A DNA stretch of 64,000 nucleotides from Trypanosoma brucei (GCA_000002445.1 CP000071.1:384001-448000); one strand, 5' to 3'. Positions 25,379-64,000 are shown, counted from the stretch's first letter. Notes: a model not told the origin generated them from the sequence alone. Program-made: numbers and translations.

Positions 25379-25608
25379 TGTCCCTCACTCTCTTGGGGCT
25401 TTACTTTTCCCGCCGTCTCCCTCTCTGAGACGGCAAAAGCGATGTGAATTTATCAACTAAGTCCTTCCCGAATATATCCAATCAAGCTCATACAAGACGC
25501 ACGGTTCTGCCACCCGCTGGAGGAGAGAAACTCGCTCCCTTATTTCTTCACCAAATCGCCCCACGCGTGTAAAATCACCACCTTGCCTTGTTTTTATCTC
25601 TCGCCTAT

Positions 25609-25633
25609 TTTATATATATATATATATATATAT
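25609..25633. repeat. (TA)n microsatellite
   Basis: tatatatatatatatatatatat. Confidence 0.9.
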
Positions 25634-45072: not shown

Positions 45073-45327
45073 TTTCTTCACTCACAATCCACTATGTTAA
45101 TTCAATGAAAGGAGAGGCGAAATGGATATTTTTGTCAATGGTCAAGCGAGTGGCACCGCACACTACCTCCTCAGCCAAATTTACACTGCAACAGAAAGTG
45201 GCAGCATCGGATAGATCAGCCCAGCATCACATGTTCAAAGGAAAAAAATAGAAAGTAGCACGTACACACACACAACGTAGTAAATGCCAGAATACAGGAC
45301 AGATGAAAAGCGGCGGGGCACCAACTA

Positions 45328-48136: not shown

Positions 48137-51100
48137 TCACGATACGGCTATAAAGAACCCCAAGCTGTCACCAAGGGTGTCCACCACAGGACCACTGGAC
48201 GCCAATGCTTTACGCCCACCTCCTCTGCCGCCCAGTGGTCTTTGCCCCACAGATCGCGGGGGTGTCGCGTTTAACTCCGACCGTTCACAAGCCGGTACTG
48301 TGACGTACAGTGGTAGTTCGAATAGGGGCTGCCAAACGCGGCTGGTTGCCTCGTCGGGCTTATCGTCGGGATTCAGGGGGTGACTCACAGCCCACTGTAG
48401 ATCTAGTCCAACCACCGGCACAGTGGCGACGGACCGTTTTACCACGTCGCAAACCTGAGGGGGTTCAGGTTCTGTCAAGAAAAGAACGCTATTACACATC
48501 GCACTGCCCTCCTGGCGTGGCTCAGAGCCCTTCTTCCCTGAACGCAGGTCCCACAGTACGCCACTCGGCTGTCGCGAAGGACAGTCTGTAAAATCGCTCT
48601 GATACCGAACGGCGATAACGATATCCATATCATGCTTGCTGGCACCTACCTCCTTGTTCCATCTCATTTCACATGGCTTCCAACCGGCCTGTATCGATAC
48701 CTCCCGCTCCAATTGCCGCGAGGGCGCAGCACCAGTGAGGAGGACGTCGTCGTGAAGGAGCATGTAGCGCCGTGTCACTACCAAAACCGCCTCAATGTGG
48801 CTCAGCAAATCACCCTTCCGCTCCAACGCATCTGCCAAGAGTATATTGAGCAGGAGCTTTGGATACTGCAACGCAGGCAGCCATACACTGAGAACGGACC
48901 CGGGCTGCCATCCCCTGAACTGCGCTGTCGCAACTCGCAGCCGTGAGGATAACTCTTTGTGCTGGGCGCGTTCCAATGCCCTGACAGTTTTCTCTCCATA
49001 GACCCCCTCCCACACAAGCAGTAACGATACAGCCGAATTTGACTCAAAGTCTTCATGGGGCTCCGTTTGAGAAGCACCATCTACCCCACCCTGTGAGCAT
49101 AATGGTCCATCTGAGGTGCTAAACAGCGGATCAGCCCTCGTAGAGAAAGGAACACCACAAAGGCTTCTCCGCAAGGCACTACTTGCCATGCTTCGGTATG
49201 TCACAATCGTGTGGTCGTCTCCACAAAGATGGAGGAAACTTTTGTCGGAACGACGCAGAGTCGCCATGAAGACCTCATCAGTTGGCTTCTCCCTGAGAAG
49301 CTCGTCCAGTGCAGTGCTGTAGCACAAACGCCCGTCATCCCTCAGCATCAACAGGGGACCACGCTCGTACAGCATGTTTTCAATTAGCAAACAACCTTGA
49401 TGTCTTTCGCTTCGAGATGTGTACACGAGGTAGGCCACTTTATTAAAGAGACGGTACAGCCGCTCACTAATTGACCTCCTCTGCAAGGTTGCGCTCTTCA
49501 GCTCCGTACTTGACACAGTGTGGGTTGCGGCGTGTAAAGTAGTGGATGGGTGCCTCTTGGATGACGGCTCCTCCTCCTGTGGGTCATCTAGCTGTTTGAG
49601 CGAAACGAGACGCAGGATGAGAAGAAGATCATCAGTGTTGATGTCCGTCCGATACAAATCAGTGAATACGTTGTCAAGTCCCCTATCCTCCACAAGAGCA
49701 CGCTGGACAGCACCCCCAGCACTGATTCCGGCGTGTAGCTCGAGGACATAGCCCAACGGCGTAACCATGGTGTTGCCCCGGTCGCCTCTCTTGCACGAGT
49801 CCAAATGACTGCAACTGACCCCCGATTTGGTACATTCCCTCTCAAGAAGAAGTGTCACACCCTCTCTTTTCCACGGTGGAGCAAACACCTTCCCCCCAAT
49901 GACGGAAAGCAACTGGTGCCGCGGTGACACCGAATCCACTACTACGGGAAAGCACCACTCCTGCATGGCGCGAACCACGTTATTCCGTACCATATTAGGG
50001 GCGCCCCTAACAGTGCAACACAGTACAACAGGTGTGCGTGTCGAGTGGCCACCACCCCGGAGTAGACCCCATATCCCGTACCGCCATAAGGCAGAGAACC
50101 TGCTTGAAATTGCTTGCAGGAATGACGCCTCCTCAGACACGCCAGCTGGCGGCACAAACACGGCCATAACGCAGTGGCCACGCACAACGTGGGTAGGAGG
50201 TTGTTGAAATGAATGACTGACATAACCCACAAGCTGATCCAAGTCCCTTACATTGGTTACGGTGAGGTACCGAAAGAAGAAACTAGCCGAGTTCGCACGC
50301 TGCCTAACATAACCGACCAATTCATGTGTGTTGGCTCCCTTCAGAAGCAATGGAATCGATGTGTTCCCGGAAAACTGCCACCATTCTTCACTATACCGCA
50401 GATTAGTGCACTGACTGTCAAGGGAGTCGTATATGGACAAACCCCCCTCTTCCGTGACTTTCTTCTTCACCGATGTGAAAAACGCGGCATAGAGGTCAGA
50501 AGCAGCCGCATCGCATGCCCTGTGGTTCAGCAACATCCACTGTTGAAAAAGGAAACGGATTAATTCTTCACCAGCTTTCAACACCCATGAAGTATTTGTA
50601 TCCTTAACGAAGAGCGTGCTCTCCAAACTCAGACCGCTCTCGGTGTCATCAAGCGTGGAGTTATCACGGGCAATACTATTTAGCAACGGGTCCATTGATG
50701 ATTCGTACAGGTTCCTTACTGTCTGCTTATCAGCAGCAATATTTTGCCGAGTGAGCAGCCGGTTCAGTACATCGTATTGTTGGGAAGTGAGAAAGGTGAT
50801 GTGGGAAGAATACAGCACACCCGAGTGAGCCAACATAAAGCCGCAGCTGTGCACCACGGTGGACAGAATATACCATGCGAAGATGCCACGCAGTTCCATG
50901 GGCCAGCCGGAAGCCATCACATCCACAAGGCTCTCAACGAAGTTTACCGTTGCATAAAAGTCTCTCTGTGGTGGTGGTAGCTTGTCAAAAGTTCCAGGTG
51001 ATATGCGACGCACGTAGGCACTCGACAAGTTTGTTGCACCCACAATGAACGGTTCCAGCATGCGCCATTCCCACAACCTTCCTAATATCTCTTTCTCTAT

Positions 51101-54100
51101 GACACGTACAGCCCGCTCCGCCGCTTGAATCCCCCGTTTAAGTCCCTCCCACAAAGAGGCCAGTGGTTTTTGCACGCTTTTGTTGTGCGCCTCGATGCGT
51201 AGCACAGTCATGTGGAGGGTGTGCAACTCGCGAAGAAGGAAATCAAGTCGTTCGAGCTCGCCGTTGTTGTTCCCAGCCAGCTCGTCAAGGTCACCGCTTA
51301 ACATCTCTCTGACCTCTGGTAGCGTTACACGAAAGGCACAGAGTGCGTCATTGTCTTGCTTGTCGCGCACACTAAAGACATTCTCCACCAATGGTCTTGC
51401 GTACGCCGTCGGGCACCCTAAGAGTATCGTGTGAACTCCCTCCTCTATCCGACGCGGACTGGGAATGTTGACGACCGTAGTGTAGCAACGCGTGGCAGCC
51501 TTAGCTTCTTCGTGTAGCATAACCGCAGGAGAAACACAAACCATGAGAAAACTGGGCTTTACAGGCACTTCCTGCCCAAATAGTGTGCACCTCAAGTTAC
51601 GCTTTTGCAGCGCCGCCTGCGGTAACGCCTTCAGCAACAACAGTAGAGGTCGCAAACGCTCCAGCACAGAAGGGGCATGCACGTCACATATGAGTAGACC
51701 GATCCCCGAACTAGCTGCCCTAACCACCTCGTCGCAGAAGTCCTTCTGCATTACGGAAACAACGACGCAGTCACCGCAGATGAACGCCAGACAGCGGCCC
51801 AAAACCTCTTCAAAAACGTTTGTTACACCGCAAAAGATCGGGCAGTTGGAAAAGATCTTCTGGAGCAATCCTGCGATGCATTGTCGTTCATAGGTAGAAC
51901 ATGCCGATAGAAGCAAACTTTCGACCGTCTCGTCGACGCTAGGAAACAGCAGTGAAGCTGCGGGGTCCTCCAAATCCGCCGGGGCCTGGATACCCCAATC
52001 ACAAAGAAGTGAGTACAGAGCTTTGTGGCAGGACCGTTGCACCTCAAGTGGTAAAGAGGCAAAAAACGCAAAATGAGCAGCAACCATAATAACGGCACCC
52101 TCACCCTTTGCCATCTCGTTGCACTGCGCCGCAGTTTTGCCTGGTGTATGGAACAAGGAAAACCTATCCAGAGCGTCCGTTATAAATTCAAGGGATTTTT
52201 GGCGCTTCGTCATATCCACTACCGTCGTTTCTAGGCCCTGGCTCTTCTCATCTACGTTGTTAACTTCCTGTTCAACACATTCAATTTTCCTTCTGGACTC
52301 GGAGACGCCACACCCCGCTTCGTTCTTTCTATCTTCAATAGTTGTGTACTCAAGACGCAAGCTGTCTAATTCCATCTGTTCAATCTGCAGCTCCTTCTTC
52401 ACCCGCACAGCCTCCATGACGGACAAAAGGTAATCCGACAAAGCATCAGCAAAGGGTGAAACATCGGTAAACCGTACACCGCGCAACGAGGAATGGACAC
52501 TCGCAAGGGACTCGTACGACAAACTCTCATGATCCAAATCTCGGAGCCGGGCGATAAATTTGGATGCTGTCATGATGCTTCTACCGCGGTCCCACACATC
52601 TCTTGTCGACGTTGCACGAAGATCCTCCCCCAACACCCTACAGACAGCCTTTACAAGCAACACGCCCTTGGGCGAAGGCAAGCTGCTTGCATATTGCCTG
52701 ATCTGCGCCGTCTTCATTGAACACAAACGAGCTTTTGTAGAGGAAAGACCATCGCTGATACTTTCCCTCTTTAGGCGAAGCGCGTTTTCCGCCGCGGTCA
52801 CCAGCGGCAACAAGTCACATGACTTCCTCTGCAAAAATTCCCACTCACTCTGATGCCGTGTGGCGCACTCCTTGGACCTCTCCAACCTAGCCACCAGCTC
52901 CCCACGGTGCTGGACAACGGTCACCTTCGTCTCCTCCGCCTCTTTACTTTTGTTGGCGTACTCCTGCATTTTTGTGGGAATGGCGTTGAACAGATCGTCA
53001 ACTCTAAGGGACTGAGAGACACAATGGCATATCCTAAACAAAGTCCCTCTAAGACGGTTAGCTAGTGTGGCGAACTCCTGCAACTGCTCAACAGAAATCT
53101 CGGTGTTTGTTCGTAGACAAAAAAATATGTCACATAGAAGCTGAGAGTAGGGACGTCCCAGTAGCGTCTCCGTATCCATAGGAACTCCCAAAAAGCAGGG
53201 TATGGACTCCACAGGTGCATCCTTTCCACAACCTTCTCCCCCTGGCGGTACATCCGCACTTTCGGCCCTCCCCGTTTCTGGTACGACAAATGTCGCCTTC
53301 TCGCTGCGGATCACCACATCGACATGTTCTCTCAGCATATCCGGGGCGTGCAGCACCACGGGAAGCATTTGCAGTACGAAAGGAATCACAGTGCCCAGAC
53401 GCCTCATTTCCTCAAAGCTAACAAAATGTGCTACAATACTCAAACGGGAGGAAATGCGTTCCCGCAACTGCACCTCTTCCGCAGGAGTGAGTTTCCCACT
53501 TTGGCGTTGTATGCCCCGCCGTCCGTGTAATAGGTACAGCTGCTCTTCAACAGAAAACAGTTGCCTAACATTACCACCGCGCAGTGTGTAATAAAGAAGA
53601 CTCAGTGGCCAAACCAGTGTTAGCACCTCATTAGGAACAAACACCACCATGCGACTCCCGCTACGGCAGGTGCCTTGCAGGATTTCAATGAGTTCTCGAG
53701 TAAACGAATTCTTCGCATCCGGAGCAGCAAAATCAGACAGCAATGACCTCAAGTTCACGCCCCTTCCGGCGGCCCACACGTGCAGTGCTCGACGGATGCC
53801 GATGCCGTAGGCCCCAACAAGAGCAACATGAGAGCCTTCCTGTCTCAAACAATGGTGCACATCTGATATCAACGAAACCGTCCAATGTGGGGTACAATTC
53901 ACATGCGGCGCCCCCCCAACGGCTGCCTGTTGCTGTGCCTCCTTTGTGGACGGCGATTCCATACGCGACTTGCCCGTCGATATATAAGGGGATTCACTAC
54001 GGATCTCATCGACAAGGGCAGGCGGCATCATCACGTCGTGCTTCTCCAGCCATTTCCTGATGACGTCGTGTCCCACAGATGGATACTCAAGGCTGTTCAA

Positions 54101-57100
54101 CACCTCAGTTACGTAGGTTTCGTCAGCACCCTCGCGCTGGCGTGCGCCAGGGGAGTACCGCATGGTCTCCTTCGCCATCTTAAGAAGCTCAGCCATTAAC
54201 TCTTCTCGGCGGCCTTCGCCAGCAATAAGAGGCATGAAAAACGTGTAAACCGAATGGTATATACCCTTTACGATACTCGCCTCATCTAACTGAGTGGAAA
54301 GAATACGCAACACCTTGTCCACAACCCTGAGAAGAACGTAAGGATAGGGTAACTGTGATTGATTGTCGGCCCTGTCATCAGAAAAACTCAGGAGAGACGT
54401 GTCTTCGAATGCACAAATCCCCTCGATGCTCGCCAGTGTACTCTTCAGCCGATCTAAACCCGAGTGGTTGTCCCCGAGCAGCGAATTTATGAAGTGGAAA
54501 GCCATACTCTGCGAGGCAATGAGAAAGTCGCCCACGCCCTTCAAAAACCCCTCTCCGCGCCGTACGCCCCTTGTTTTGCCAATAAGTTTCTCCACTTCAT
54601 GCAGTATTTCATCCTCAATAAAATCTGGTATCATTATCCGAAGGACGCTGTTTTCCACCTCAGGTTCGTGAGGCGGTGTCGGTAACGAGGTTCCTACACA
54701 TATAACATCCTTTATGGGCACGTAGCCCTTTGACGGTGTGCACAGAGCAGAGTAGTGGTCAATGAAAGCGAAGACACACATGGCTTGGGGATATCCCATT
54801 TCTCCAACGAGGTGGACATCATCAACACATAGCACTAACCTCTGCCCAGATGAAGGTACATATGTGTTGTGTTGGGAGCGAGAAAGACCCTGAAGCAATG
54901 CATCCTGTACATCTCCAGCGGTGCACGCTACCGTGTTGTGAACCAACTCATATGCCCACCGGCTGCTACACCGCATGTGATTTAAGAGAGTCGACTTCCC
55001 CTGACCCCGCTCCCCCACAAGCAGAACTGGCTGGCCCACCGCGGCCATATATTCTAAGTGCATTAGCGTCCGCTGTCGTGAACGCAAGGGGAAAAAGTAC
55101 GTCCACGCGTGTTGTTTAAAGTTTACACCCGGATCCCTGGACGCCCACGGGGTAGGAAACCCAACATCACTAGCCTCCTTGCCCAATTTCTTCCACCCAA
55201 ATGGTGTCGCAATATAGTTCAAAAGGTCGTCGTCTGGTGGAAATATAACATTCTCATCCACACCTATATGCTGTGCCACAGCTGTTAGGCCACTTTGCGA
55301 CTTCTTAAACGCAACAATACCCGTAGAGATTTCGCTTACTTGCATGCATAACATAACCGACCAGCAGGTCGCAAAAACAGCGCACTGAGATGCGAAAACA
55401 TCATCGCTTGAATGTTCGCCCTCCGCCTTGCCACACGATCGCGCAAACGCATACCATCGCTTGTAAAACCTGGAGCAGCGGCACACAACGCCGAACACAT
55501 CTTCGTCTAAACTAGAAATCCTTGGCACTGCGCTCACGTCGAGCACAGCCTCGATAAGTGCCGATATTACAGGGAATGCCGCGCCTGGGCTACAGTTCGG
55601 ATCGCTGTAGAGTTCATTTTTTAGCAAATCCTTCCATCCAGACGGCTCCGGCAGGGCATATATAGCCACCTCACTCACTATACGTGGATTGGCAGATTCT
55701 AAGGTAGTAACCACAGTGATAATGCGTGTTGACGAACCTTGTATAAAATCCGGTCCAGAGTACGACCGGACTCTTACATGCGCTGCGCTCTCCAAAAAAG
55801 TGGGTACATCCACCACGTTCGTGTGTTCCATCACAATCGTATGAGTCGATATCGGGTCCCACTTCCTAGCAATGGAAACAAGTAAACCAGGTCGGGATTC
55901 GTCGCCATACACTTCCGCCGAGCATAGAAGCCGGTGGGAAAGGACAATATAGTGCGTGTCCCCGACCCAACTCTTCCACAACGGGGTCTTCCCGGAATAT
56001 GCAGACCCCACGAGCATGGCGTTTTTGTTGAATTTCATGAAGTAGGTAAAACGTTCCAAACAACTATCGAACCCCAACTTTGACTTGAACTTCTCCAATA
56101 CCTCCTCCAAGACGTGTCGCGGGATCCCAAGTGTGTGAACAACGTTCCACTCGAAGAGTTTCAGCAGTCGCTCGTCCGACTCAATAACGTGCCAAAACTG
56201 CCGCAAAAATGCCGAGCACAGACTTTCAGCCATTGTCCCCGTTTTGCAGTCAGCAGCGTCTCGAATTACCGACAAGAAACTCCTGCACGTGAAGACAGCA
56301 GGCAACATCGCAACAAACTGGGAAAACATTGTGGCCAGTCTTTGCCCAATACTTGCGAAATGAGGCACCCCAAGTGCCTGGAGCGTACCCTGGGCGAGCA
56401 ACCCTAGGTCCACAGAAGGTACATAAATCGGTCGAAAGGCAAGACTGAGAGCGGTGGGTATTTCATCGAGCTCACGTGTTGTGAGAACAACATGAAAGCA
56501 CGCATCCCTGATGGCACATATAGAATTATCGCCTGCCTGAAACTCTACCGTTGACATACCACCGTCATTGTGTCTCTTTTCATTGCGACATGCTGACTCA
56601 ACACCTTTGAGAAGCGCTGAGACTGAATCGGCTAACTCCCTGCCCAGAAGTTCAATGTCCTTTAGGCACAATATCACTCCCGCGCCCAAGCAACCACGTA
56701 AGGCACGCACAATGCCCTCGAATGGCAGAGTCGGATGGCATTGGAGGAACCAACAGAAGCGGCCCAAGTACTGTGCATAATATTCTAGCTCCGAGTTTTC
56801 GTTGTTCTTCCCGATAAGAATAGGGAAGGAAGATGCTCTTATCGACATAAGCATGCTGCACAATCCCTTCTCAACATACTCAGGAGTCAAAATGGGAATG
56901 TTATAGTCTCCAAAAAACTCCATACCGTAGGGTAACTGAAGGCCCATCATCTGTACAACAATTTTTCCGCCTTCCAGCAACGTTTGCACCATCGCTGTGG
57001 CTTTAAGATCCTCCAGCGTTTCAACACCGGATTTGCTGACCAGTCGCAGTTCATCCCGGTACCGTAAGAGAGAGGTAATGGCAGTACTAAGGATTCTCTG

Positions 57101-60100
57101 AACTCTGGCACCTAAGGTATCATCAGCAAGTCGTACATATTCTTCCAAAACATCTTTTGAACGGCGGGTATATGCGTTCATGCCTGCCGTGCCAGCAACA
57201 GAAACAGCCTCCCGCAGGTCATGGTGACAGATTGTGCGAAGAGCTACATCGATCACCTGTACACATGAATCACCCAACCAAACCAAGGTATCCATGCGGT
57301 AATGATTTTCCACCGACATTTTTATTTCGTTGAGAAGTGAGGAACGTAACGTTCTGTCAAACGTTTTCATCCATTGTTCAACAGGTAGAGGTGATAACTC
57401 AATGGGGGTGTCCGTTCTAAGCACAGAACCATCAGTAGTAATAAACGACGTCACAACATTTCCCTCCAGATTAACGTCACAAACCCTGCTGTACAATGTT
57501 GTAAGGTGGCGCTTCAGTTTTGTTGCGTTGTGAACGGACAAGAACGACAACAACGACTCATCATCCATGAGATAAAAACGTGGGAACACCTCCCGCTTCG
57601 CGTCAAGTGAAGATGCAAGAATTTTTCGAACATCACCTAAAATTGTACGAGCCAAAGTGACCTGGTCTTGTATATTCTCCTGCATCATGGCCGTAAAAAG
57701 AGTGTACTGAGCTTTCCGCAAAGTCGCTGCCAGTGACTTGAAAGTATCACTAGTAGATGACACCTTCTCACGCAATAATTTTAGGTCTCGAGGAGTGAGT
57801 CCTATAAAATCCTCGTCCGTTGTGGTTTCAAGGGTTATTCCAAACGGTAGCACCTCCTTCCACTCTTTCTCGACGTCCTCCCACGTTAGTAATGTCTCCT
57901 TCATTCGTTGCACAACAGAATCGAACTCCATTACGGAACTTATGGTATACTGACTAAGATGTTCAACTTGACGTAAAGCACTTAACTCGTGTGAGAATGC
58001 TTCCAGCTGTGAAGATATCGAGGTCCTGCATCTCGGCGAAAGAATGAGGGCATCATTGGATCCCTCGGCAACTTCAAAGACAAAGCGTGTTTTCTTCGCG
58101 TCACTCTTCATGCGCTCCAAAGTAGCTTCCGCCTCAAAATCTAAAAAAGCGGGGTCTACAATTAGTTTTATCTCGTCAAGGTGATCAATGATACCATTCT
58201 CAAGTAATTGCTTTAGTGTGACGTTAGAATCAATCTGAGTCGACTGCTTTCTGCCAAGCTGGAGAATCCTCCCTATCTCCTTCCAGTGATTTTTCCGCAA
58301 GCCAGGTGTTGATAAGTATGCCAAAAGAGTCTGCAGAGACTCGAAGTCTGCCAACACCTGTTCTTGTTGCCTCCCTAGACACACTAAACCCGGATATCCC
58401 CGTAGATTCCGAACTGAGGAATGAAGGAGCCTTCTGCATCGCTGGACTTCATCGATAGTTTTCTCACTGTTCAGGGCACTGAGAGGAATTATATAGTAAT
58501 CCTTGACCCGAGTCGAATCAAAAACGCTGCACCAAAACTGTTCCAGAACGTCAAAAACACGCAACACGGGATGTACGTCATCAAATGTCTCGACAGTTTC
58601 GAGACCAAGTGACTTTTCGCAATAAAAGACGTGGTCAATTCCCTTGACGACGTCGTCAACAATAACTCGCAGCTCCTCACATGTTTGCGCACATATGTCA
58701 CAAACATCAACACTGAGAAGTCCCAATAACTCAATCACACCATTACGGACCACAGTTATTTTACCATGCAAGTCATTGCGGTACTCAACTAACTGAACAA
58801 CCAAAGCAGGCTTCCTCTCAGCGCAAGCCTTCTTCGCATTATTTGTTAACACGAGAAGCTCGTTGGGACATCGCATGAGCTCTGCTGCTACTTCATACAG
58901 TTGAGAATCTGCTGGTATGAGAAGCTTTTCTAAGTAACTAAAGAACTCGATAGCCCTTCTGCAATCGCCTGCCTCTATCTGCTTTGATAAATGTTCTGCA
59001 TATGTAATATCAGATTGCAATTTCTCCAGCTCCTCAACACTGTTTGGAATTACCGATAACTGATCGTTGTAACTACGGCATTTCTCCAATGATGAGCGTA
59101 TGAAAGACAAAATGTCTTTCTGAACCATGTTCAAAAAGCTTTTCAAGTAAGAAGACCATTGTTTTACGTACCATTTCTTCACATCAGTGCAGTTAATAGC
59201 AATGCAGCCGCAAAACACCACATCAGGTGATATTTTCCCCACTTCTAATATGGTATCGCGAAGCAAATTCACATTGCTTACAACTTCTTCCTCCGAGCAT
59301 TTGGTGAAGCACACTCCGTTTAGTGTCGGCATACGAGCAAACATCGAGTACTTCTCCGTTAAGTCCTCAACTACGGTACATGCTGCTCCTAGGTACCTTA
59401 TTAGGGTTGCTTTTCCTGGAAAGCTGTCGTCGTCAAACAAATTTAGGGAGTGTCTCTCAAACTGAATCGTTCGCATAATAACAGTTTCCGGAGTAGGAAG
59501 GTTGTTTGCGCTGTCGAGTAATTCGTCCAGCAGATCAGCGATACCAAAATGAAGTTGAGCGAACGATGGAGAACTTGGTAAACCACAACCACCAACGACA
59601 AAATACACCTCAATAAGGGACATTTTCCGTGCCTTCAACGGTGTCACTATACGATCCCCACCAGTAGCGAAGAATGATACTAAATCATCAATTGCATCGG
59701 ATATAAGAATCCTGATACGGTTGGTTAAAAATATACGTACCATCAAAAATACACGCCACAGTTCACTCTCTTTTAAATCATTCAAATCCATCGACAAAAG
59801 CGTACCTGCCTCGGGGATCGTGGTAAATAAAAGTTGTTCCACCTCCGTATAGAACTCAATCCTTATTCTGGTGAACGCCGCCCTCATAGAACATCCCAGC
59901 TGAGAAAGGAAATCATCCGCGTCTGTTCGCCAGTTGAAGGTAGTTGTGTTGAAAACAGCAAGCCTCTCAAAACGATCCGACCACAAGTGGTGTAACCTCA
60001 CAAAAAAATCATTTTTCCCCTCAGACCATATAAGCGAGTGTTTTAGACAATAAAGGGACTCGTTAAATGCTAAAAATCCCCCGTGGTCAGAGCCGTCATC

Positions 60101-60811
60101 CCGTCCATTGTCTTCTTCGAATCTTTTGATATCTTCATTGCGACAAACGAGGCGCAAGGGTGCCATTATCCTGCGGAAAAGGGAATTGAGATTCATATAA
60201 TCATAAATAGCTTCGACACAAACCCTAATATACACCTGTTCAATCTCTTTCATTGTCCTCTCAACAACATCCCGATGGTCAGCAGTTGTTCCTTGAGTTG
60301 CTAATATGACTATTCGTCTCAAACAACCCGTTTCATGAGTTATACATCCTTTGGCTACATTCTCATATAAATCAATGAGCAATGATGTCCTAAAATCACG
60401 GCCACTTTTACCGGAGGTGCACAAAGCCTCCTCGCTAATCCCAACAGGAACTCGAACCGAACGTCTCTGCGATTGTAACTGTGACACTTGAATGTACTGC
60501 CTCTTTCCATCATAACAAAATGTTCCCACATATGGTGAGTAATGACAACCTATTCTCGAGCTAGGAGATGATGATGCCTTCTTCCATGAGCAAATCGCGT
60601 CGAAAAGATCGCTCTCCTTGAACTCAGGGAAGTGAAGAACTTCGGTTCGTCCCGTGTAGTCGGGTGCTATGCCAAAGGAACCGAAGCCAAAAGTCTCACC
60701 AAACCCTGCATCCGTGGCAACAGTGATAAATGGTCGCGGAATACCATCTAGAAAATAGGCAAGGACCTTTTCAAAACGAATCTGTCCACCACAATCCCGC
60801 CTGTAATTCAT
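48137..60811 (-). CDS. Dynein heavy chain family protein (4224 aa), with non-canonical AAA1 nucleotide-binding motifs
   Basis: The ORF-track start at 60820 is a TTG; the first ATG is at 60811 (MNYRRDCGG...). The AAA1 block aligns by eye to canonical DHC: ...LGRFCWFLQC... vs LGRFVLVFNC, and ELDEIPTALSLAFRPIYVPSVDLGLLAQ vs [26 protein letters not shown]. P-loops follow in dynein order and spacing: the AAA2-like AMLVGSAYSGKT about 270 aa after the AAA1 site, the AAA3-like VLLVGERGQGKST about 340 aa further on, then the AAA4-like HVALVGAYGIGIRR, which is degenerate. Coiled-coil stalk-like segments and a C-terminal domain follow. Confidence 0.9.
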   Translation of the reverse strand: MNYRRDCGGQIRFEKVLAYFLDGIPRPFITVATDAGFGETFGFGSFGIAPDYTGRTEVLHFPEFKESDLFDAICSWKKASSSPSSRIGCHYSPYVGTFCYDGKRQYIQVSQLQSQRRSVRVPVGISEEALCTSGKSGRDFRTSLLIDLYENVAKGCITHETGCLRRIVILATQGTTADHRDVVERTMKEIEQVYIRVCVEAIYDYMNLNSLFRRIMAPLRLVCRNEDIKRFEEDNGRDDGSDHGGFLAFNESLYCLKHSLIWSEGKNDFFVRLHHLWSDRFERLAVFNTTTFNWRTDADDFLSQLGCSMRAAFTRIRIEFYTEVEQLLFTTIPEAGTLLSMDLNDLKESELWRVFLMVRIFLTNRIRILISDAIDDLVSFFATGGDRIVTPLKARKMSLIEVYFVVGGCGLPSSPSFAQLHFGIADLLDELLDSANNLPTPETVIMRTIQFERHSLNLFDDDSFPGKATLIRYLGAACTVVEDLTEKYSMFARMPTLNGVCFTKCSEEEVVSNVNLLRDTILEVGKISPDVVFCGCIAINCTDVKKWYVKQWSSYLKSFLNMVQKDILSFIRSSLEKCRSYNDQLSVIPNSVEELEKLQSDITYAEHLSKQIEAGDCRRAIEFFSYLEKLLIPADSQLYEVAAELMRCPNELLVLTNNAKKACAERKPALVVQLVEYRNDLHGKITVVRNGVIELLGLLSVDVCDICAQTCEELRVIVDDVVKGIDHVFYCEKSLGLETVETFDDVHPVLRVFDVLEQFWCSVFDSTRVKDYYIIPLSALNSEKTIDEVQRCRRLLHSSVRNLRGYPGLVCLGRQQEQVLADFESLQTLLAYLSTPGLRKNHWKEIGRILQLGRKQSTQIDSNVTLKQLLENGIIDHLDEIKLIVDPAFLDFEAEATLERMKSDAKKTRFVFEVAEGSNDALILSPRCRTSISSQLEAFSHELSALRQVEHLSQYTISSVMEFDSVVQRMKETLLTWEDVEKEWKEVLPFGITLETTTDEDFIGLTPRDLKLLREKVSSTSDTFKSLAATLRKAQYTLFTAMMQENIQDQVTLARTILGDVRKILASSLDAKREVFPRFYLMDDESLLSFLSVHNATKLKRHLTTLYSRVCDVNLEGNVVTSFITTDGSVLRTDTPIELSPLPVEQWMKTFDRTLRSSLLNEIKMSVENHYRMDTLVWLGDSCVQVIDVALRTICHHDLREAVSVAGTAGMNAYTRRSKDVLEEYVRLADDTLGARVQRILSTAITSLLRYRDELRLVSKSGVETLEDLKATAMVQTLLEGGKIVVQMMGLQLPYGMEFFGDYNIPILTPEYVEKGLCSMLMSIRASSFPILIGKNNENSELEYYAQYLGRFCWFLQCHPTLPFEGIVRALRGCLGAGVILCLKDIELLGRELADSVSALLKGVESACRNEKRHNDGGMSTVEFQAGDNSICAIRDACFHVVLTTRELDEIPTALSLAFRPIYVPSVDLGLLAQGTLQALGVPHFASIGQRLATMFSQFVAMLPAVFTCRSFLSVIRDAADCKTGTMAESLCSAFLRQFWHVIESDERLLKLFEWNVVHTLGIPRHVLEEVLEKFKSKLGFDSCLERFTYFMKFNKNAMLVGSAYSGKTPLWKSWVGDTHYIVLSHRLLCSAEVYGDESRPGLLVSIARKWDPISTHTIVMEHTNVVDVPTFLESAAHVRVRSYSGPDFIQGSSTRIITVVTTLESANPRIVSEVAIYALPEPSGWKDLLKNELYSDPNCSPGAAFPVISALIEAVLDVSAVPRISSLDEDVFGVVCRCSRFYKRWYAFARSCGKAEGEHSSDDVFASQCAVFATCWSVMLCMQVSEISTGIVAFKKSQSGLTAVAQHIGVDENVIFPPDDDLLNYIATPFGWKKLGKEASDVGFPTPWASRDPGVNFKQHAWTYFFPLRSRQRTLMHLEYMAAVGQPVLLVGERGQGKSTLLNHMRCSSRWAYELVHNTVACTAGDVQDALLQGLSRSQHNTYVPSSGQRLVLCVDDVHLVGEMGYPQAMCVFAFIDHYSALCTPSKGYVPIKDVICVGTSLPTPPHEPEVENSVLRIMIPDFIEDEILHEVEKLIGKTRGVRRGEGFLKGVGDFLIASQSMAFHFINSLLGDNHSGLDRLKSTLASIEGICAFEDTSLLSFSDDRADNQSQLPYPYVLLRVVDKVLRILSTQLDEASIVKGIYHSVYTFFMPLIAGEGRREELMAELLKMAKETMRYSPGARQREGADETYVTEVLNSLEYPSVGHDVIRKWLEKHDVMMPPALVDEIRSESPYISTGKSRMESPSTKEAQQQAAVGGAPHVNCTPHWTVSLISDVHHCLRQEGSHVALVGAYGIGIRRALHVWAAGRGVNLRSLLSDFAAPDAKNSFTRELIEILQGTCRSGSRMVVFVPNEVLTLVWPLSLLYYTLRGGNVRQLFSVEEQLYLLHGRRGIQRQSGKLTPAEEVQLRERISSRLSIVAHFVSFEEMRRLGTVIPFVLQMLPVVLHAPDMLREHVDVVIRSEKATFVVPETGRAESADVPPGGEGCGKDAPVESIPCFLGVPMDTETLLGRPYSQLLCDIFFCLRTNTEISVEQLQEFATLANRLRGTLFRICHCVSQSLRVDDLFNAIPTKMQEYANKSKEAEETKVTVVQHRGELVARLERSKECATRHQSEWEFLQRKSCDLLPLVTAAENALRLKRESISDGLSSTKARLCSMKTAQIRQYASSLPSPKGVLLVKAVCRVLGEDLRATSTRDVWDRGRSIMTASKFIARLRDLDHESLSYESLASVHSSLRGVRFTDVSPFADALSDYLLSVMEAVRVKKELQIEQMELDSLRLEYTTIEDRKNEAGCGVSESRRKIECVEQEVNNVDEKSQGLETTVVDMTKRQKSLEFITDALDRFSLFHTPGKTAAQCNEMAKGEGAVIMVAAHFAFFASLPLEVQRSCHKALYSLLCDWGIQAPADLEDPAASLLFPSVDETVESLLLSACSTYERQCIAGLLQKIFSNCPIFCGVTNVFEEVLGRCLAFICGDCVVVSVMQKDFCDEVVRAASSGIGLLICDVHAPSVLERLRPLLLLLKALPQAALQKRNLRCTLFGQEVPVKPSFLMVCVSPAVMLHEEAKAATRCYTTVVNIPSPRRIEEGVHTILLGCPTAYARPLVENVFSVRDKQDNDALCAFRVTLPEVREMLSGDLDELAGNNNGELERLDFLLRELHTLHMTVLRIEAHNKSVQKPLASLWEGLKRGIQAAERAVRVIEKEILGRLWEWRMLEPFIVGATNLSSAYVRRISPGTFDKLPPPQRDFYATVNFVESLVDVMASGWPMELRGIFAWYILSTVVHSCGFMLAHSGVLYSSHITFLTSQQYDVLNRLLTRQNIAADKQTVRNLYESSMDPLLNSIARDNSTLDDTESGLSLESTLFVKDTNTSWVLKAGEELIRFLFQQWMLLNHRACDAAASDLYAAFFTSVKKKVTEEGGLSIYDSLDSQCTNLRYSEEWWQFSGNTSIPLLLKGANTHELVGYVRQRANSASFFFRYLTVTNVRDLDQLVGYVSHSFQQPPTHVVRGHCVMAVFVPPAGVSEEASFLQAISSRFSALWRYGIWGLLRGGGHSTRTPVVLCCTVRGAPNMVRNNVVRAMQEWCFPVVVDSVSPRHQLLSVIGGKVFAPPWKREGVTLLLERECTKSGVSCSHLDSCKRGDRGNTMVTPLGYVLELHAGISAGGAVQRALVEDRGLDNVFTDLYRTDINTDDLLLILRLVSLKQLDDPQEEEPSSKRHPSTTLHAATHTVSSTELKSATLQRRSISERLYRLFNKVAYLVYTSRSERHQGCLLIENMLYERGPLLMLRDDGRLCYSTALDELLREKPTDEVFMATLRRSDKSFLHLCGDDHTIVTYRSMASSALRRSLCGVPFSTRADPLFSTSDGPLCSQGGVDGASQTEPHEDFESNSAVSLLLVWEGVYGEKTVRALERAQHKELSSRLRVATAQFRGWQPGSVLSVWLPALQYPKLLLNILLADALERKGDLLSHIEAVLVVTRRYMLLHDDVLLTGAAPSRQLEREVSIQAGWKPCEMRWNKEVGASKHDMDIVIAVRYQSDFTDCPSRQPSGVLWDLRSGKKGSEPRQEGSAMCNSVLFLTEPEPPQVCDVVKRSVATVPVVGLDLQWAVSHPLNPDDKPDEATSRVWQPLFELPLYVTVPACERSELNATPPRSVGQRPLGGRGGGRKALASSGPVVDTLGDSLGFFIAVS

Positions 60812-61050
60812 ACTATACAATCCCCTTATAACTTATGAATACTAGAACCCTCCACAAAAATAATAATTAATTCAAAAAAAAATACGGGTGCCCGCCGCGA
60901 TGGGGTTACAAACCGAAGTACTCCAAGGAAGACCGTTCGTTCAAGGAAACACGTGGAACGTTAATACGTTATGAACGAACATACAAGTCTAAACCAACGG
61001 TCAGAACGCAGTTGAGATTTGTCGTATAACAAAAGAGAGTAAAAGAAACA

Positions 61051-61512
61051 TTAGCTCCGTAGCTTGTTGAAGTCGAATCTGTGCTCAGCGCCTTGTTTCA
61101 ACTGCTCAGTTACGAACTGTAACCACGCAAGCTGGTTAACTCCCTCCTCGCAGTGGTGCGCGCTGATTCGCTTTAGTTCGTACTCATAGTCCTCCATCAT
61201 CGTGCAAATACGACTGCGCATGAGCATCCCGCGACATGTGTACAGTATTCCATAGAGCACAACACCCATACTAATAGCAGGGGGGAGGGGCCGTGTGTAG
61301 TAGACACTGTTCTTAAATATGTGACGTGGACCCCAGAGTCTGAACACCAGCATAACACTGGACGTTGTGAAGGTTACGCACCCCACAAGATAATACCACG
61401 CCCTGCTCTGATGACGGGCCAACTGTTCCACCCGGTCGGCAACGTGGTGCCTCTGGCTTTGGGAAATCTCCGTAACATACTGTGAAAACTCCTGACCAAC
61501 CTTGGACGACAT
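61051..61512 (-). CDS. Small hypothetical membrane protein (153 aa, ~2 predicted TM helices); first gene of the minus-strand polycistron
   Basis: The ORF-track ORF (61051..61572, GTG start) translates straight through a polypyrimidine tract. On the coding strand the sequence is ttttcttctttctttctttctacctttctttctttcAGtaATGTCGTCC, so MSSKVGQEF... at 61512 is the start that makes sense of the splice signal. Hydrophobic segments YYLVGCVTFTTSSVMLVF and AISMGVVLYGILYT. Confidence 0.5.
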   Translation of the reverse strand: MSSKVGQEFSQYVTEISQSQRHHVADRVEQLARHQSRAWYYLVGCVTFTTSSVMLVFRLWGPRHIFKNSVYYTRPLPPAISMGVVLYGILYTCRGMLMRSRICTMMEDYEYELKRISAHHCEEGVNQLAWLQFVTEQLKQGAEHRFDFNKLRS

Positions 61513-61514
61513 TA

Positions 61515-61553
61515 CTGAAAGAAAGAAAGGTAGAAAGAAAGAAAGAAGAAAAT
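61515..61553 (-). promoter_or_regulatory. Polypyrimidine tract + AG: predicted spliced-leader trans-splice acceptor for the 61051..61512 gene
   Basis: 36-nt pure C/T run on the minus strand (plus-strand aaagaaagaaaggtagaaagaaagaaagaagaaaa), ending in cAG 2 nt upstream of the ATG. Confidence 0.5.
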
Positions 61554-61946
61554 GCATCAAACCGGGCGACACACACAGTAGCGGAGATCAATCCCACGCG
61601 GGGAACCTCCTCGTTTTCAGGAGTCATACCATCACGCGAGGGGGTGCCCCGTATCGAGCCGGACCCCAAAGGGAAACTCGGAAATGCTGCGGAGGAAGCC
61701 AGGGACTCCGGGGTCCGCGGAGTCTGGACACCGTCGCCGACAGCCGAGTCTTCCACTACGGGCAAGACGACGGCGACCCCTACCACCGGCAGCCGCACCG
61801 CGCCGGCGATACAGTTGCGCGCTCACAGCACCACTGTAGGGGTGCCTCGCCCGTGTAGCCACAACCAGAGAGAAAGGGCAGCGGGGAGCCGACACAACTG
61901 CAGAAGGCTCTCGTCGTCAGAAAGTTCAACAGTGAAATGTAGAAGT
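61554..61946. promoter_or_regulatory. Divergent strand-switch region: GC-rich spacer between the minus-strand and plus-strand polycistrons; putative RNA Pol II transcription start region
   Basis: Gene orientation flips here: minus-strand genes lie below 61512 and a plus-strand gene begins at 62031. The ~400-bp spacer is conspicuously GC-rich (gcggggaacctcc..., ggggtgccccg..., ccggggtccgcggagtctggacaccgtcgccgacagccgag..., cgcaccgcgccggcg...), unlike the AT/homopolymer-rich intergenic DNA elsewhere in the window. Overlapping ORFs in several frames on both strands are typical of GC-rich non-coding DNA. Confidence 0.55.
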
Positions 61947-61969
61947 GCCTTCTCTCTTCTCTTCTTGTA
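61947..61969 (+). promoter_or_regulatory. Polypyrimidine tract + AG: predicted trans-splice acceptor for the F-box-like gene
   Basis: ccttctctcttctcttcttgtAG about 60 nt upstream of the ATG at 62031. Confidence 0.45.
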
Positions 61970-62030
61970 GCCGTTCAATCCAAGGAATAGTAAGGGCACA
62001 AGGCACATTTTAGTTGGAGCGCGAAATAGC

Positions 62031-63095
62031 ATGGAAATGGCGGCGCCACCGCCGCCTGCCCGTAGGAGGCGACAGCCTTTCATTACGTCTTTCCTTGAAA
62101 ACGTATTACCGTTCCTACCGGCACGTGAGTTGCTTGTTTGTGCGACCGTATCCCGCACCTGGAGGGAGGAGTCTAGGGCACTTTCCATCTGGAGAGCGCT
62201 TCTAATCAGTAATCCACGGACAGTACAGTACGGGTATCAAGGGCTTACGCTAGGAGAGATGCAAAAAATAGCCCTCCGAGCCGCTAATTTGTCGGACAAC
62301 CGTGGTGACGCCGGTGGAGTCACTGACCAAGAAACCAGTGGAATGGAAAGAAGTGACTTGAGAGACAGTGAGAGAAGAGCTGAGCCGTCCCTGGAGAACG
62401 CGAGAGGTAAGCAACGCAGACAATTCTCATCATGCGGAGGGGTCTCGACATTAGAAAGAGGTGCAATAATGATCCAGCGGACTGGTGGGGCCATCTGTGT
62501 CGAAACGAAAAGTTGTACCAACGATATACAGAAAACCTTCGAAACCGTTCAAACGTATATCGTACATGTGAGAGAAAACGTTAAGTCAATTGCGTGTGTA
62601 ATCGATGCACTCCGTCAGAAGGTACCAAGCAGTGAGTCTATTAAGTTTCATCAACAGTGTGTTGGGTTGTGGAAGAGGCTCAATGTGTTCGAGGAGATTG
62701 TTATCGATTCGCTTGATGAAGGTGAAACCGCATCACTAAGAGGACTTCGCAACTTTAAGCAGGTGGAGGTGGTGATGTCAGGACAAGTAGAATCGCAAGC
62801 TTACATCCAGTGGTGTTTTTTCAAGCAAGCACTTCCACTTGATGAAACCTATTATGATTACGTAGACCTGCTGTATTCATTAGGTCCAGCCAGATGTGGT
62901 CCCGCGATCGCGACTCTTTCAGAAATAGAGCTGGCCGTAGAGAGGATTCGAATGAACAATCAGCTTCAAACTGTCATCGATGGTGTGATAATGATGAAAA
63001 GTGTGGATATTGGAAGATTATGTTGGGAATCTTTGATGGCTTATGTAAACACAGAGAGGCGTGCAGCAGATCTTGGTGGACGTAGACCTGAATAA
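62031..63095 (+). CDS. F-box-like protein (354 aa); first gene of the plus-strand polycistron
   Basis: N-terminal F-box-type motif ...FITSFLENVLPFLPARELLVCATVSRTWREESRALSIWRALL (LPxxxLxxCxxVSRxWR pattern). Genuine ATG with a PPT/AG upstream. TAA stop at 63095. Confidence 0.65.
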   Translation: MEMAAPPPPARRRRQPFITSFLENVLPFLPARELLVCATVSRTWREESRALSIWRALLISNPRTVQYGYQGLTLGEMQKIALRAANLSDNRGDAGGVTDQETSGMERSDLRDSERRAEPSLENARGKQRRQFSSCGGVSTLERGAIMIQRTGGAICVETKSCTNDIQKTFETVQTYIVHVRENVKSIACVIDALRQKVPSSESIKFHQQCVGLWKRLNVFEEIVIDSLDEGETASLRGLRNFKQVEVVMSGQVESQAYIQWCFFKQALPLDETYYDYVDLLYSLGPARCGPAIATLSEIELAVERIRMNNQLQTVIDGVIMMKSVDIGRLCWESLMAYVNTERRAADLGGRRPE

Positions 63096-64000
63096 AATAT
63101 TGGTTCAATTTTGTTTCTTTTTTGACTTCACTAACTAACCCCTTTTCCACTTGATGAGGTGGGTTCAGGAGCTCAAACCAAGAAAGCCATCAACTGGAAA
63201 CACGATTGGCGCATATCATGAAGGTAATGTGTTTGAAAAAGATGGTAAATCGAAAAGCCATACACCTATCAAGTTCGAGACGGACTGTCACCAGCTGGAG
63301 TTATAAATAACTCAATAGGCGCCAAAGTAGAAAAAAAGGATGGACGCGTGGAATTGAGGAAGTGACCCGAACGTAATTGCTTCGGTGTCCGTGTAAACAT
63401 CCTGTCTACAGAATTATTAACAGAGCTTCGACACTTATCTGGATCCCCTTGCTTGATACACGTAACAACTGCTGTTATTCGATAACGGGTACTCACGTTA
63501 ATTTGTTTTGTTTCTGCTCGATAAAGTGTGCTCTTTTTTCATGTCCTACAAATCTAAATAAAGACCAATGTGCTTTACCTGTTTACGTTAGCCATCTTAC
63601 AAATGAAATGCAAAAGAAACTTTGCATGTTATCATCAGTCACCATTACCGACAGAACAGTTGAAACTACGTGATATGACGATACAGCGCATGAGTCATAC
63701 TTTTTCTATTGTAAAGCAAGCAGCGAAACGTACAATATCATAGTCTAAAAATTTACTTCAAAGGAATTTGAAGATGTATTTCGAATCTGAACAACGATGG
63801 GGGATCAAAAAGACTTCTTGATTAGTTAAATATTAAGACTGTTCAACAGCTACGTAAGAAGCAGGAGCTTTTGTGGATGCCCATTCTCTCCCCCGATTCG
63901 TAGGGTTAACAAGAAGAGGGTCGATCCGCATGGTGTAGTAAATCCCTTTATCAGCAGTTGTTGACTTGAGATGGACCGCATTTACTCACAAGTACATAAA

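What the first reader, a model, noticed from the sequence alone, without database searches (positions are those of the whole stretch)
61513..62030. GC-rich divergent strand-switch region: likely Pol II transcription start region for two polycistrons
Coding-strand polarity flips between 61512, the start of the last minus-strand gene, and 62031, the start of the first plus-strand gene. Both flanking genes carry their own polypyrimidine/AG acceptor within tens of nucleotides of the ATG. The ~400-bp core between them is strikingly GC-rich and nearly free of the homopolymer and microsatellite tracts that fill every other intergenic stretch in this 64-kb window. From established knowledge, divergent strand-switch regions in trypanosomatids are the main Pol II initiation zones; they are marked by H2A.Z/H2B.V, H4K10ac and BDF3, and promoter activity there has been tied to GT/G-rich elements. 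This short, compositionally distinct spacer is therefore a good candidate for a compact bidirectional promoter whose sequence determinants could be dissected.
Basis: partly seen in the sequence, partly recalled or inferred. Interest (0 to 1): 0.5.

Follow-up and report, generated by a model that had tools for sequence, protein, structure and literature searches.

The report
Known trypanosome divergent transcription start region
This is the short head-to-head gap between genes Tb927.8.1370 and Tb927.8.1380 on Trypanosoma brucei chromosome 8, already listed in a 2010 study as a place where RNA polymerase II starts in both directions; what is less ordinary is its unusually GC-rich core, a compositional feature also present at the same gap in most related parasites examined.

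Summary
Coding polarity flips between 61512 and 62031. The 393-bp core (61554..61946) has 62% GC and no simple repeats, 4.2 SD above all other non-coding DNA in the window. The whole-window minimum of cumulative G-C lies inside it, at 61866.

The window is T. brucei TREU927 chromosome 8, 384,001-448,000. The flanks are Tb927.8.1370 (TMEM188-like) and Tb927.8.1380 (F-box protein). Kolev et al. 2010, Table S14, already list both as first genes of 'Divergent' putative Pol II units.

One correction: the plus-strand unit is a single gene, not a polycistron.

The spliced-leader site of Tb927.8.1370 is published at window position 61514, two bases before the ATG.

No protein gene, RNA family, excess RNA structure or conserved motif was found in the core.

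New here: the head-to-head arrangement is conserved in every related genome whose contig reached the gap. A GC island ranks at or near the top of the locus in T. vivax, T. cruzi, T. melophagium and L. mexicana. It is weaker in T. conorhini and absent in Phytomonas. No sequence similarity accompanies it.

Whether the island is itself a compact bidirectional promoter remains untested.

The parts
61051..61512 (-). CDS of Tb927.8.1370 (TMEM188/CNEP1R1-like, 153 aa). It is the first gene of the minus-strand polycistron Tb927.8.1370 -> Tb927.8.480.
   Evidence: ORF. 28 kinetoplastid homologues of 152-160 aa, and UniProt Q57VL8 is named 'Transmembrane protein 188'. Kolev Tables S1 and S14.
60963..60975 (-). 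Published polyadenylation sites of Tb927.8.1370 (chr8 444963-444975).
   Evidence: Kolev Tables S1 and S13, converted with the offset window = chr8 - 384000. The offset was checked on the L7a genes.
61514..61516 (-). AG splice acceptor (61516/61515) and the first exon base (61514) of Tb927.8.1370. The 5'UTR is only 2 nt.
   Evidence: [quoted passage not shown] Sequence read.
61517..61552 (-). Polypyrimidine tract of the Tb927.8.1370 acceptor; it reads as (GAAA)n on the plus strand. The TREU927 annotated start at 61557 lies just beyond it and is wrong.
   Evidence: Kolev Table S1 lists the gene as having a misannotated start.
61554..61946 (.). GC-rich, repeat-free core between the two polypyrimidine tracts. 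Each pre-mRNA must start upstream of its own tract, so each start lies either in this core or further back inside the opposite gene.
   Evidence: GC 0.623, z = 4.2 against non-coding windows. No Pfam hit, no homologue and low coding score. No Rfam hit, tRNA or excess RNA structure.
61635..61891 (.). GC island proper: the maximal-scoring segment, 257 nt at 68.5% GC.
   Evidence: The richest 200-nt window, 61633..61832, has GC 0.69, a value reached by only 0.01% of windows.
61704..61724 (.). Imperfect palindrome GACTCCGGGG-T-CCGCGGAGTC inside the GC island. Its significance is unknown.
   Evidence: inverted repeat I6, 9 of 10 bases complementary.
61866..61866 (.). Global minimum of cumulative (G-C) over the whole 64-kb window. 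This is the compositional strand-switch point.
   Evidence: consistent.
61948..61970 (+). Polypyrimidine tract (61948..61966) and first downstream AG (61969/61970). This is the predicted splice acceptor of Tb927.8.1380.
   Evidence: Sequence. Indirect support: the gene is absent from Kolev's 'start misannotated' and 'no transcript' tables. The splice site itself was not found in the files held.
61971..62030 (+). Predicted 60-nt 5'UTR of Tb927.8.1380.
   Evidence: Inferred from the acceptor above.
62031..63095 (+). CDS of Tb927.8.1380 (F-box protein, 354 aa). It is the only gene of the plus-strand unit.
   Evidence: Pfam F-box-like. 99% identical to the T. equiperdum protein and 42% to the T. 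congolense protein. Named as an F-box adaptor of TbCul-A, with orthologues in T. cruzi but not Leishmania (PMC12816148). Kolev Table S14.

Best explanation
The interval is the divergent strand-switch region between Tb927.8.1370 and Tb927.8.1380 on T. brucei chromosome 8 (Tb927_08_v4 445,513-446,030). It is a catalogued RNA polymerase II transcription start region.

Pol II starts in both directions from this neighbourhood. Leftward, it transcribes a long polycistron that runs from Tb927.8.1370 to Tb927.8.480. Rightward, it transcribes a unit of one gene, the F-box gene. Each pre-mRNA is then trans-spliced at a polypyrimidine/AG signal at the edge of the gap.

Both acceptor signals face a 393-bp core. 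Each primary transcript must therefore begin either inside that core or further back inside the opposite gene. The GC island is the likeliest site of the narrow Pol II/SPARC-type peak of a single-peak ('bidirectional') start region. Following published models, the H2A.Z/H4K10ac domain would spread several kb into the genes on each side.

Shown here: the strand switch, the real flanking genes, the mapped splice site of Tb927.8.1370, the published listing as 'Divergent' units, the composition, and the conservation of the arrangement.

Inferred: the exact start sites, the chromatin state, and any promoter role of the GC island itself.
For: - Kolev 2010 Table S14 lists both genes as first ORFs of 'Divergent' putative Pol II units. 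[quoted passage not shown]
- The window-to-chromosome mapping was verified at three genes.
- All genes from 1 to 61512 are on the minus strand, and the F-box gene is the first on the plus strand.
- The SL site is at 61514.
- The cumulative G-C minimum of the window is at 61866. This matches the known excess of G on the coding strand at start regions.
- The divergent arrangement with the TMEM188 gene as first gene is conserved in T. vivax, T. cruzi, T. melophagium, T. conorhini, L. mexicana and Phytomonas.
- Staneva 2022 reports that divergent start regions show one or two narrow SPARC peaks, the single-peak ones being bidirectional promoters.
- In T. cruzi, short gaps under 750 bp show one defined H3K4me3 peak and robust nascent transcription.
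- The richest 200-nt GC window of the gap is matched by at most 0.06% of the locus's 200-nt windows in T. vivax, T. cruzi, T. melophagium and L. mexicana.
Against: - No per-nucleotide start-site or ChIP data for this locus could be read here. Table S14 is labelled 'putative' and is partly annotation-driven.
- Wedel 2017 found initiation dispersed: all twelve 1.8-kb fragments of two start regions were active. Starts may therefore lie mostly outside the core.
- The core lacks long G or T tracts. Its GT excess fits only the minus-strand unit.
- The GC island is weak in T. conorhini and absent in Phytomonas.
- No shared motif was found among five Trypanosoma orthologous gaps.
Confidence: 0.8

Rival explanations
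1. The gap is a start region, but the GC island has no promoter role. Initiation is dispersed over several kb and is set by chromatin. The primary transcripts overlap, each starting inside the opposite gene. The GC richness is a by-product, for example of GC-biased repair or recombination, R-loops or replication-origin activity at unit boundaries. It could also reflect the absence of the AT-rich and polypyrimidine UTR signals that shape all other intergenic DNA.
For: - Dispersed initiation and activity of every tested fragment are reported in Wedel 2017.
- Staneva 2022 could not find common motifs under CRD1/RPB1 peaks.
- Here there is no sequence similarity or shared k-mer among orthologous gaps.
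- The island varies greatly in size (38-257 nt) and in position within the gap.
- It is absent in Phytomonas.
Against: - A by-product would not be expected to make the gap the top GC window of the locus in five of the seven species with readable sequence across the gap, T. brucei included, despite complete sequence turnover.
- Narrow Pol II/SPARC peaks do exist at start regions.
- With only 393 bp between opposed acceptors, non-overlapping divergent starts must lie in the core.
Confidence: 0.4
2. The GC-rich core hides an unannotated gene: a small protein, a degenerate pseudogene or retroelement relic, or a non-coding RNA. Its coding-like composition would come from that.
For: - GC of 0.62 with no simple repeats is coding-like. 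Long open frames exist: 162 codons on the plus strand in frame with the F-box ATG, and 161 codons on the minus strand.
- The best-of-six periodicity score, 0.45, is slightly above 95% of shuffles.
- T. congolense accession numbering suggests two ORFs were called between the orthologues.
Against: - The long frames lack ATG starts, and the longest ATG-led ORF lying wholly within the gap is 51 aa.
- With only 12.7% T, stop codons are rare by chance.
- There are no Pfam hits and no homologues among 5.8 billion proteins. The representative library gave one marginal low-complexity hit.
- Six-frame comparison with orthologous gaps gave nothing.
- The periodicity score is below the 5th percentile of real coding chunks.
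- There is no tRNA or Rfam match even at E <= 1, and RNA folding z-scores are -1.4 and -0.5.
- Kolev's list of novel transcripts has none at chr8 445.5-446.0 kb.
Confidence: 0.04
3. The GC-rich strand-switch domain is a centromere-type or other chromosome-structural element, like the GC-rich strand-switch centromeres of T. cruzi, rather than a promoter.
For: GC-rich strand-switch domains serve as centromeres in T. cruzi (abstracts).
Against: - The chromosome 8 centromeric repeat array of T. brucei lies between Tb927.8.7740 and Tb927.8.7750, about 1.8 Mb away (PMC1868937).
- T. brucei centromeres are AT-rich repeat arrays of kilobase size.
- This core is 393 bp, unique and repeat-free.
Confidence: 0.02

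Closest known systems
T. brucei divergent transcription start regions (Siegel 2009; Kolev 2010; Wedel 2017)
   Same: Head-to-head units, a published listing as 'Divergent' Pol II units, a GC-skew switch, and first genes with their own trans-splice signals.
   Different: The ATG-to-ATG gap is very short at 518 bp. The plus unit is a single gene. The core is GC-rich without the long G or T tracts reported as enriched at start regions. The chromatin marks could not be checked.
Single-peak 'bidirectional' SPARC/RPB1 promoters of T. brucei (Staneva et al. 2022, PMC9566855)
   Same: A divergent start region too short to hold two separated promoters. A narrow Pol II/SPARC peak is what this geometry predicts.
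   Different: SPARC or RPB1 occupancy at this locus was not available, and no motif is known for such peaks.
Short (<750 bp) divergent strand-switch regions of T. cruzi with a single defined H3K4me3 peak (bioRxiv 10.64898/2026.06.26.734760)
   Same: The orthologous T. cruzi gap is 442-453 bp in the two gap-free assemblies. It carries a 178-nt island of 73% GC. That class shows robust nascent transcription.
   Different: Different species, and that study does not report GC islands.
Sequence-specific 75-bp-scale Pol II promoters in a T. brucei strand-switch region (Cordon-Obras et al. 2022, Cell Rep 38:110221)
   Same: The idea of two oppositely oriented focused core promoters inside a divergent gap, as summarised.
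   Different: The paper is not held, so its motifs could not be compared. Staneva 2022 did not find similar motifs genome-wide.
Mammalian CpG-island bidirectional promoters (from general knowledge, not tested here)
   Same: A GC-rich, repeat-poor, TATA-less island of a few hundred bp between head-to-head genes. Composition is conserved rather than sequence.
   Different: CpG observed/expected is 1.0 in the core, about the same as in the genes and other intergenic DNA of the window. This is GC enrichment, not relief from CpG depletion. Trypanosome genes are processed by trans-splicing.

Membership tests
Trypanosomatid divergent strand-switch region / Pol II transcription start region | Two gene arrays leave the interval head-to-head on opposite strands. 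| tested here: met
   All genes from 1805 to 61512 are on the minus strand, and the first plus-strand gene starts at 62031. Pfam and homology support the genes.
Trypanosomatid divergent strand-switch region / Pol II transcription start region | Primary-transcript (5'-triphosphate) signal marks the interval as an initiation region. | tested here: met
   Met by look-up only. Kolev 2010 Table S14 lists Tb927.8.1370 and Tb927.8.1380 as first ORFs of 'Divergent' putative Pol II units.
Trypanosomatid divergent strand-switch region / Pol II transcription start region | H2A.Z/H2B.V, H4K10ac, BDF3 and SPARC enrichment over the flanks. | not testable with these tools
   No ChIP-seq tracks are available. 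These marks are general properties reported.
Trypanosomatid divergent strand-switch region / Pol II transcription start region | The first gene on each side has a functional trans-splice acceptor, so transcription must start upstream of it. | tested here: met
   The Tb927.8.1370 SL site is mapped at 61514. The Tb927.8.1380 acceptor is predicted at 61969/61970 and the gene is not in the 'no transcript' table.
Trypanosomatid divergent strand-switch region / Pol II transcription start region | Strand-compositional switch, with G exceeding C on each coding strand. | tested here: met
   The cumulative G-C minimum of the whole window is at 61866. Skew signs are shown.
GT-rich dispersed promoter elements (Wedel 2017) | Long G or T stretches enriched on the coding strand at the 5' end of the start region. 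| tested here: inconclusive
   The longest G run is 5 nt. G+T in the core is 0.565 on the minus strand and 0.435 on the plus strand, which fits only the minus unit. The published 10-mer set was not available.
Focused sequence-specific Pol II promoter (Cordon-Obras 2022) | A short element with orientation-dependent reporter activity and defined motifs. | not testable with these tools
   The paper is not held, and a reporter assay is needed.
Hidden protein-coding or RNA gene | Homologues, a domain, codon periodicity, an RNA family match or a stable structure. | tested here: not met
Centromeric strand-switch domain | A kilobase-scale repeat or retroelement domain at the mapped topoisomerase-II cleavage site. 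| tested here: not met
   The chromosome 8 array lies between Tb927.8.7740 and Tb927.8.7750. The core is 393 bp and repeat-free.

The most novel reading that the evidence does not exclude
The 257-393-bp GC island is itself the cis-acting determinant of a compact bidirectional Pol II promoter. It would be specified by base composition or DNA physical properties rather than by a motif. It would have been maintained by selection at this orthologous gap through complete sequence turnover across Trypanosoma and Leishmania, making it a trypanosomatid analogue of CpG-island promoters. If general to short divergent gaps, it would give the field a minimal, dissectable promoter class.
Probability: 0.3. 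Interest if true: 0.6.

Novelty: already known. Interest (0 to 1): 0.3.

Why it matters
How RNA polymerase II chooses its roughly 150 start regions in trypanosomes is still poorly understood. Published work offers broad chromatin domains, GT-rich tracts and one report of sequence-specific elements, with no common motif.

This locus adds nothing new as a start region. It is, however, an unusually compact case: both splice acceptors bracket 393 bp. That forces either a truly bidirectional core promoter or overlapping divergent transcription.

Its GC island recurs at the same gap in most distant relatives examined without any sequence similarity. This makes it a convenient natural test bed for asking whether composition alone can define a trypanosome promoter. 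The question can be answered with existing TSS-seq and ChIP-seq data and a simple reporter or deletion experiment.

Tried and rejected
- tRNA scan and Rfam searches found nothing. This covered the whole window at gathering score, 61300..62300 at E <= 1, and the T. equiperdum locus.
- Four ORFs lying in or overlapping the core had no Pfam domain.
- Homology search with the 162-codon plus-strand frame found nothing at E <= 10.
- An exhaustive search with the minus-strand frame 61513..61798 gave one marginal low-complexity hit at E = 1e-4, which I judged meaningless.
- blastn and six-frame tblastn of the gap against the orthologous gaps of T. vivax, T. cruzi and T. melophagium (tblastn also against L. 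mexicana) gave only low-complexity or chance matches.
- A search for shared k-mers in five Trypanosoma gaps did not exceed block-shuffled controls.
- RNA folding of both strands showed no excess stability.
- The comparison with T. equiperdum gave 11 differences in 12 kb and none in the gap. That is too few to say anything about constraint.
- Exact-protein look-ups for the TREU927 and T. congolense loci failed, so the closest informative outgroup, T. congolense, could not be aligned.
- Cordon-Obras 2022 and Siegel 2009 are not held. Supplements of Nilsson 2010 and Siegel 2010 gave no splice site for Tb927.8.1380.
- The centromere idea was rejected from the published map.
- No canonical G-quadruplex arrangement of G runs was seen.

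Full report
**What the window is.** The 354-aa plus-strand protein is 99% identical to a T. equiperdum F-box protein. The 153-aa minus-strand protein is 100% identical to a TREU927 protein on a 2,481,190-bp record.

Published coordinates fix the position. Kolev et al. 2010 give Tb927.8.1370 an annotated ORF at chr8 445557..445051. This equals window 61557..61051 with an offset of 384,000. The poly(A) sites and 3'UTR lengths of the two L7a genes, Tb927.8.1330 and Tb927.8.1340, place their stop codons at window 44242 and 45328, exactly where the two L7Ae-domain ORFs end. The window is therefore Tb927_08_v4 384,001-448,000.

The F-box gene is Tb927.8.1380. An independent paper names that ID as an F-box adaptor of TbCul-A with orthologues in T. 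cruzi but not Leishmania. That matches what I saw.

**Checking the observation.** All credible genes from 1805 to 61512 are on the minus strand, including a 4,227-aa dynein heavy chain at 48137..60820. The first plus-strand gene starts at 62031.

- The core 61554..61946 has GC 0.623 (A98 C124 G121 T50) and no simple repeats.
- Other intergenic stretches have GC 0.38-0.52.
- Against 15,294 non-coding 393-nt windows the core lies 4.2 SD above the mean, and their maximum is 0.542.
- Only 0.26% of all windows match it, and all the others are coding.

The only overstatement is that 'every other' intergenic stretch is full of simple tracts; two others have none.

**What is already published for this spot.** Kolev et al. 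2010 sequenced a 5'-triphosphate-enriched library. [quoted passage not shown] Their Table S14 lists three relevant units on chromosome 8:

- 'Tb927.8.1370 -> Tb927.8.480, minus, Divergent'
- 'Tb927.8.1380 -> Tb927.8.1380, plus, Divergent'
- 'Tb927.8.1410 -> Tb927.8.1650, plus, next to rRNA'

The correction is that the plus-strand unit is a single gene. Tb927.8.1390 and Tb927.8.1400 are pseudogenes in the 'no detectable transcript' table. In T. equiperdum, the 6.7 kb beyond the F-box gene holds no ORF over 199 aa and no Rfam match.

Table S1 of the same paper puts the 5'-most spliced-leader site of Tb927.8.1370 at 445514, which is window 61514. The AG at 61516/61515 is therefore used, the 5'UTR is 2 nt, and the ATG at 61512 is the true start. 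This agrees with orthologues of 152-160 aa. The annotated 168-aa start at 61557 lies just beyond the gene's own polypyrimidine tract, so the extra codons run through it.

**Is something else hidden in the core?** I found no evidence for it.

- The long open frames start with GTG or TTG, and the longest ATG-led ORF wholly within the gap is 51 aa.
- With only 12.7% T on the plus strand, stop codons are scarce by chance.
- There is no Pfam domain and no homologue. The representative search gave one marginal low-complexity hit.
- Translated comparison with orthologous gaps gave nothing.
- A three-periodic Markov score trained on the window's genes gives 0.45 for the best of six frames. This is below the 5th percentile of real coding chunks (0.6) and inside the intergenic range.
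- There is no tRNA and no Rfam family even at E <= 1. Folding z-scores are -1.4 and -0.5.
- Kolev's novel-transcript table has nothing on chromosome 8 at 445.5-446.0 kb.
- The chromosome 8 centromere lies elsewhere, between Tb927.8.7740 and Tb927.8.7750.

**Comparative evidence.** The TMEM188-like gene is the first gene of a unit, head-to-head with another unit, in T. vivax, T. cruzi, T. melophagium, T. conorhini, L. mexicana and Phytomonas. In the Trypanosoma species the divergent partner is the F-box gene. The T. grayi contig ends 111 bp upstream of the gene, so it is uninformative.

The gaps share no alignable sequence. No k-mer is shared beyond block-shuffled expectation. Yet the richest 200-nt GC window of the gap is at or near the top of the whole 10-64-kb locus in several species:

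| Species | Richest 200-nt GC in the gap | Fraction of locus windows at or above it |
|---|---|---|
| T. brucei | 0.69 | 0.0001 |
| T. vivax | 0.595 | 0.0006 |
| T. cruzi (two assemblies) | 0.69 and 0.695 | 0 |
| T. melophagium | 0.65 | 0 |
| L. mexicana | 0.78 | 0.0002 |

The pattern is weaker in T. conorhini (0.635, with 5.6% of windows at or above it). It is absent in Phytomonas (0.48), whose gap contains assembly gaps.

By maximal-scoring segment the islands measure 257 nt in T. brucei (61635..61891), 178 nt in T. cruzi, 159 nt in T. melophagium, 65 nt in T. vivax and 38 nt in T. conorhini. This is composition kept without sequence, and I did not find it described in the papers searched. 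I could not test whether it is general to divergent gaps, because only this one was available.

**How it most likely works.**

- *Shown:* two opposed trans-splice acceptors bracket 393 bp, and the interval is catalogued as a divergent Pol II start.
- *Follows by logic:* each primary transcript must include its own polypyrimidine tract. The leftward start therefore lies to the right of about 61552 and the rightward start to the left of about 61948. Either both starts are inside the core (a compact bidirectional promoter) or the two primary transcripts overlap, each starting within the opposite gene.
- *From the literature:* Pol II and SPARC form narrow peaks at the 5' edge of 5-10-kb H2A.Z/H4K10ac domains. 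Divergent regions show one or two such peaks, the single-peak ones being bidirectional promoters. Short T. cruzi gaps show one sharp H3K4me3 peak and strong nascent transcription.
- *Inferred:* this gap is a single-peak case and the peak sits on the GC island.

The global minimum of cumulative G-C falls at 61866. The core has T exceeding A on the minus strand. Compositionally, most of the core therefore looks like the leader of the long minus-strand unit, and the rightward leader may be short. This last point is speculation.

**Caveats.** I could not read start-site or ChIP tracks. Wedel 2017 found that every 1.8-kb fragment of two start regions could drive a reporter, so a 400-bp 'promoter' may be too narrow a picture. 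The core is not GT- or G-tract-rich in the published sense. The key promoter paper, Cordon-Obras 2022, is not held, so its motifs were not compared.

**Verdict.** As a Pol II divergent start region it is already known, and 'two polycistrons' should read 'one long polycistron and one single-gene unit'. The remaining interest is modest. This is an unusually compact gap with a GC island that recurs at the same gap in most related parasites examined, which makes it a practical test case for composition-defined promoters.

Noticed in passing
window 61512..61557: The TREU927 annotation of Tb927.8.1370 (168 aa, start at 61557) begins just beyond the gene's own polypyrimidine tract, so its extra 15 codons run through the tract. 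The mapped spliced-leader site at 61514 leaves a 5'UTR of only 2 nt before the ATG at 61512, and orthologues are 152-160 aa.
   Followed up: yes
window 62031..64000 and L001 11066..17746: The plus-strand 'unit' is the F-box gene alone. The next annotated ORFs, Tb927.8.1390 and Tb927.8.1400, lie 13.7 kb downstream and are transcript-less pseudogenes. The following unit is labelled 'next to rRNA'. No 5S rRNA or sizeable ORF lies in the 6.7 kb after the F-box gene in T. equiperdum, whose contig ends there.
   Followed up: partly
T. congolense (no DNA held): The T. congolense orthologues carry accessions CCD14293 (TMEM188-like, annotated as 189 aa) and CCD14296 (F-box). Two ORFs were probably called between them, possibly spurious calls in a GC-rich gap.
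   Followed up: no
window 61704..61724: An imperfect palindrome, GACTCCGGGG-T-CCGCGGAGTC, sits inside the GC island. No counterpart was found in the other species.
   Followed up: partly
window 25379..30143: A 4.8-kb AT-rich stretch (38% GC, 13% simple repeats) with no gene called lies inside the minus-strand polycistron. It contains a 206-aa plus-strand ATG ORF (29232..29852) with no Pfam match, probably spurious.
   Followed up: partly
window 44242..46158: A tandem pair of 60S ribosomal protein L7a genes (Tb927.8.1330 and Tb927.8.1340). Their published poly(A) sites were used to verify the window-to-chromosome offset.
   Followed up: yes
L006 4307..10000 (L. mexicana): The orthologous Leishmania gap is 5.7 kb with no F-box gene called. 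This is consistent with the reported absence of a Tb927.8.1380 orthologue in Leishmania. Its GC peak (0.78) contains runs of G and C of up to 9 nt.
   Followed up: partly
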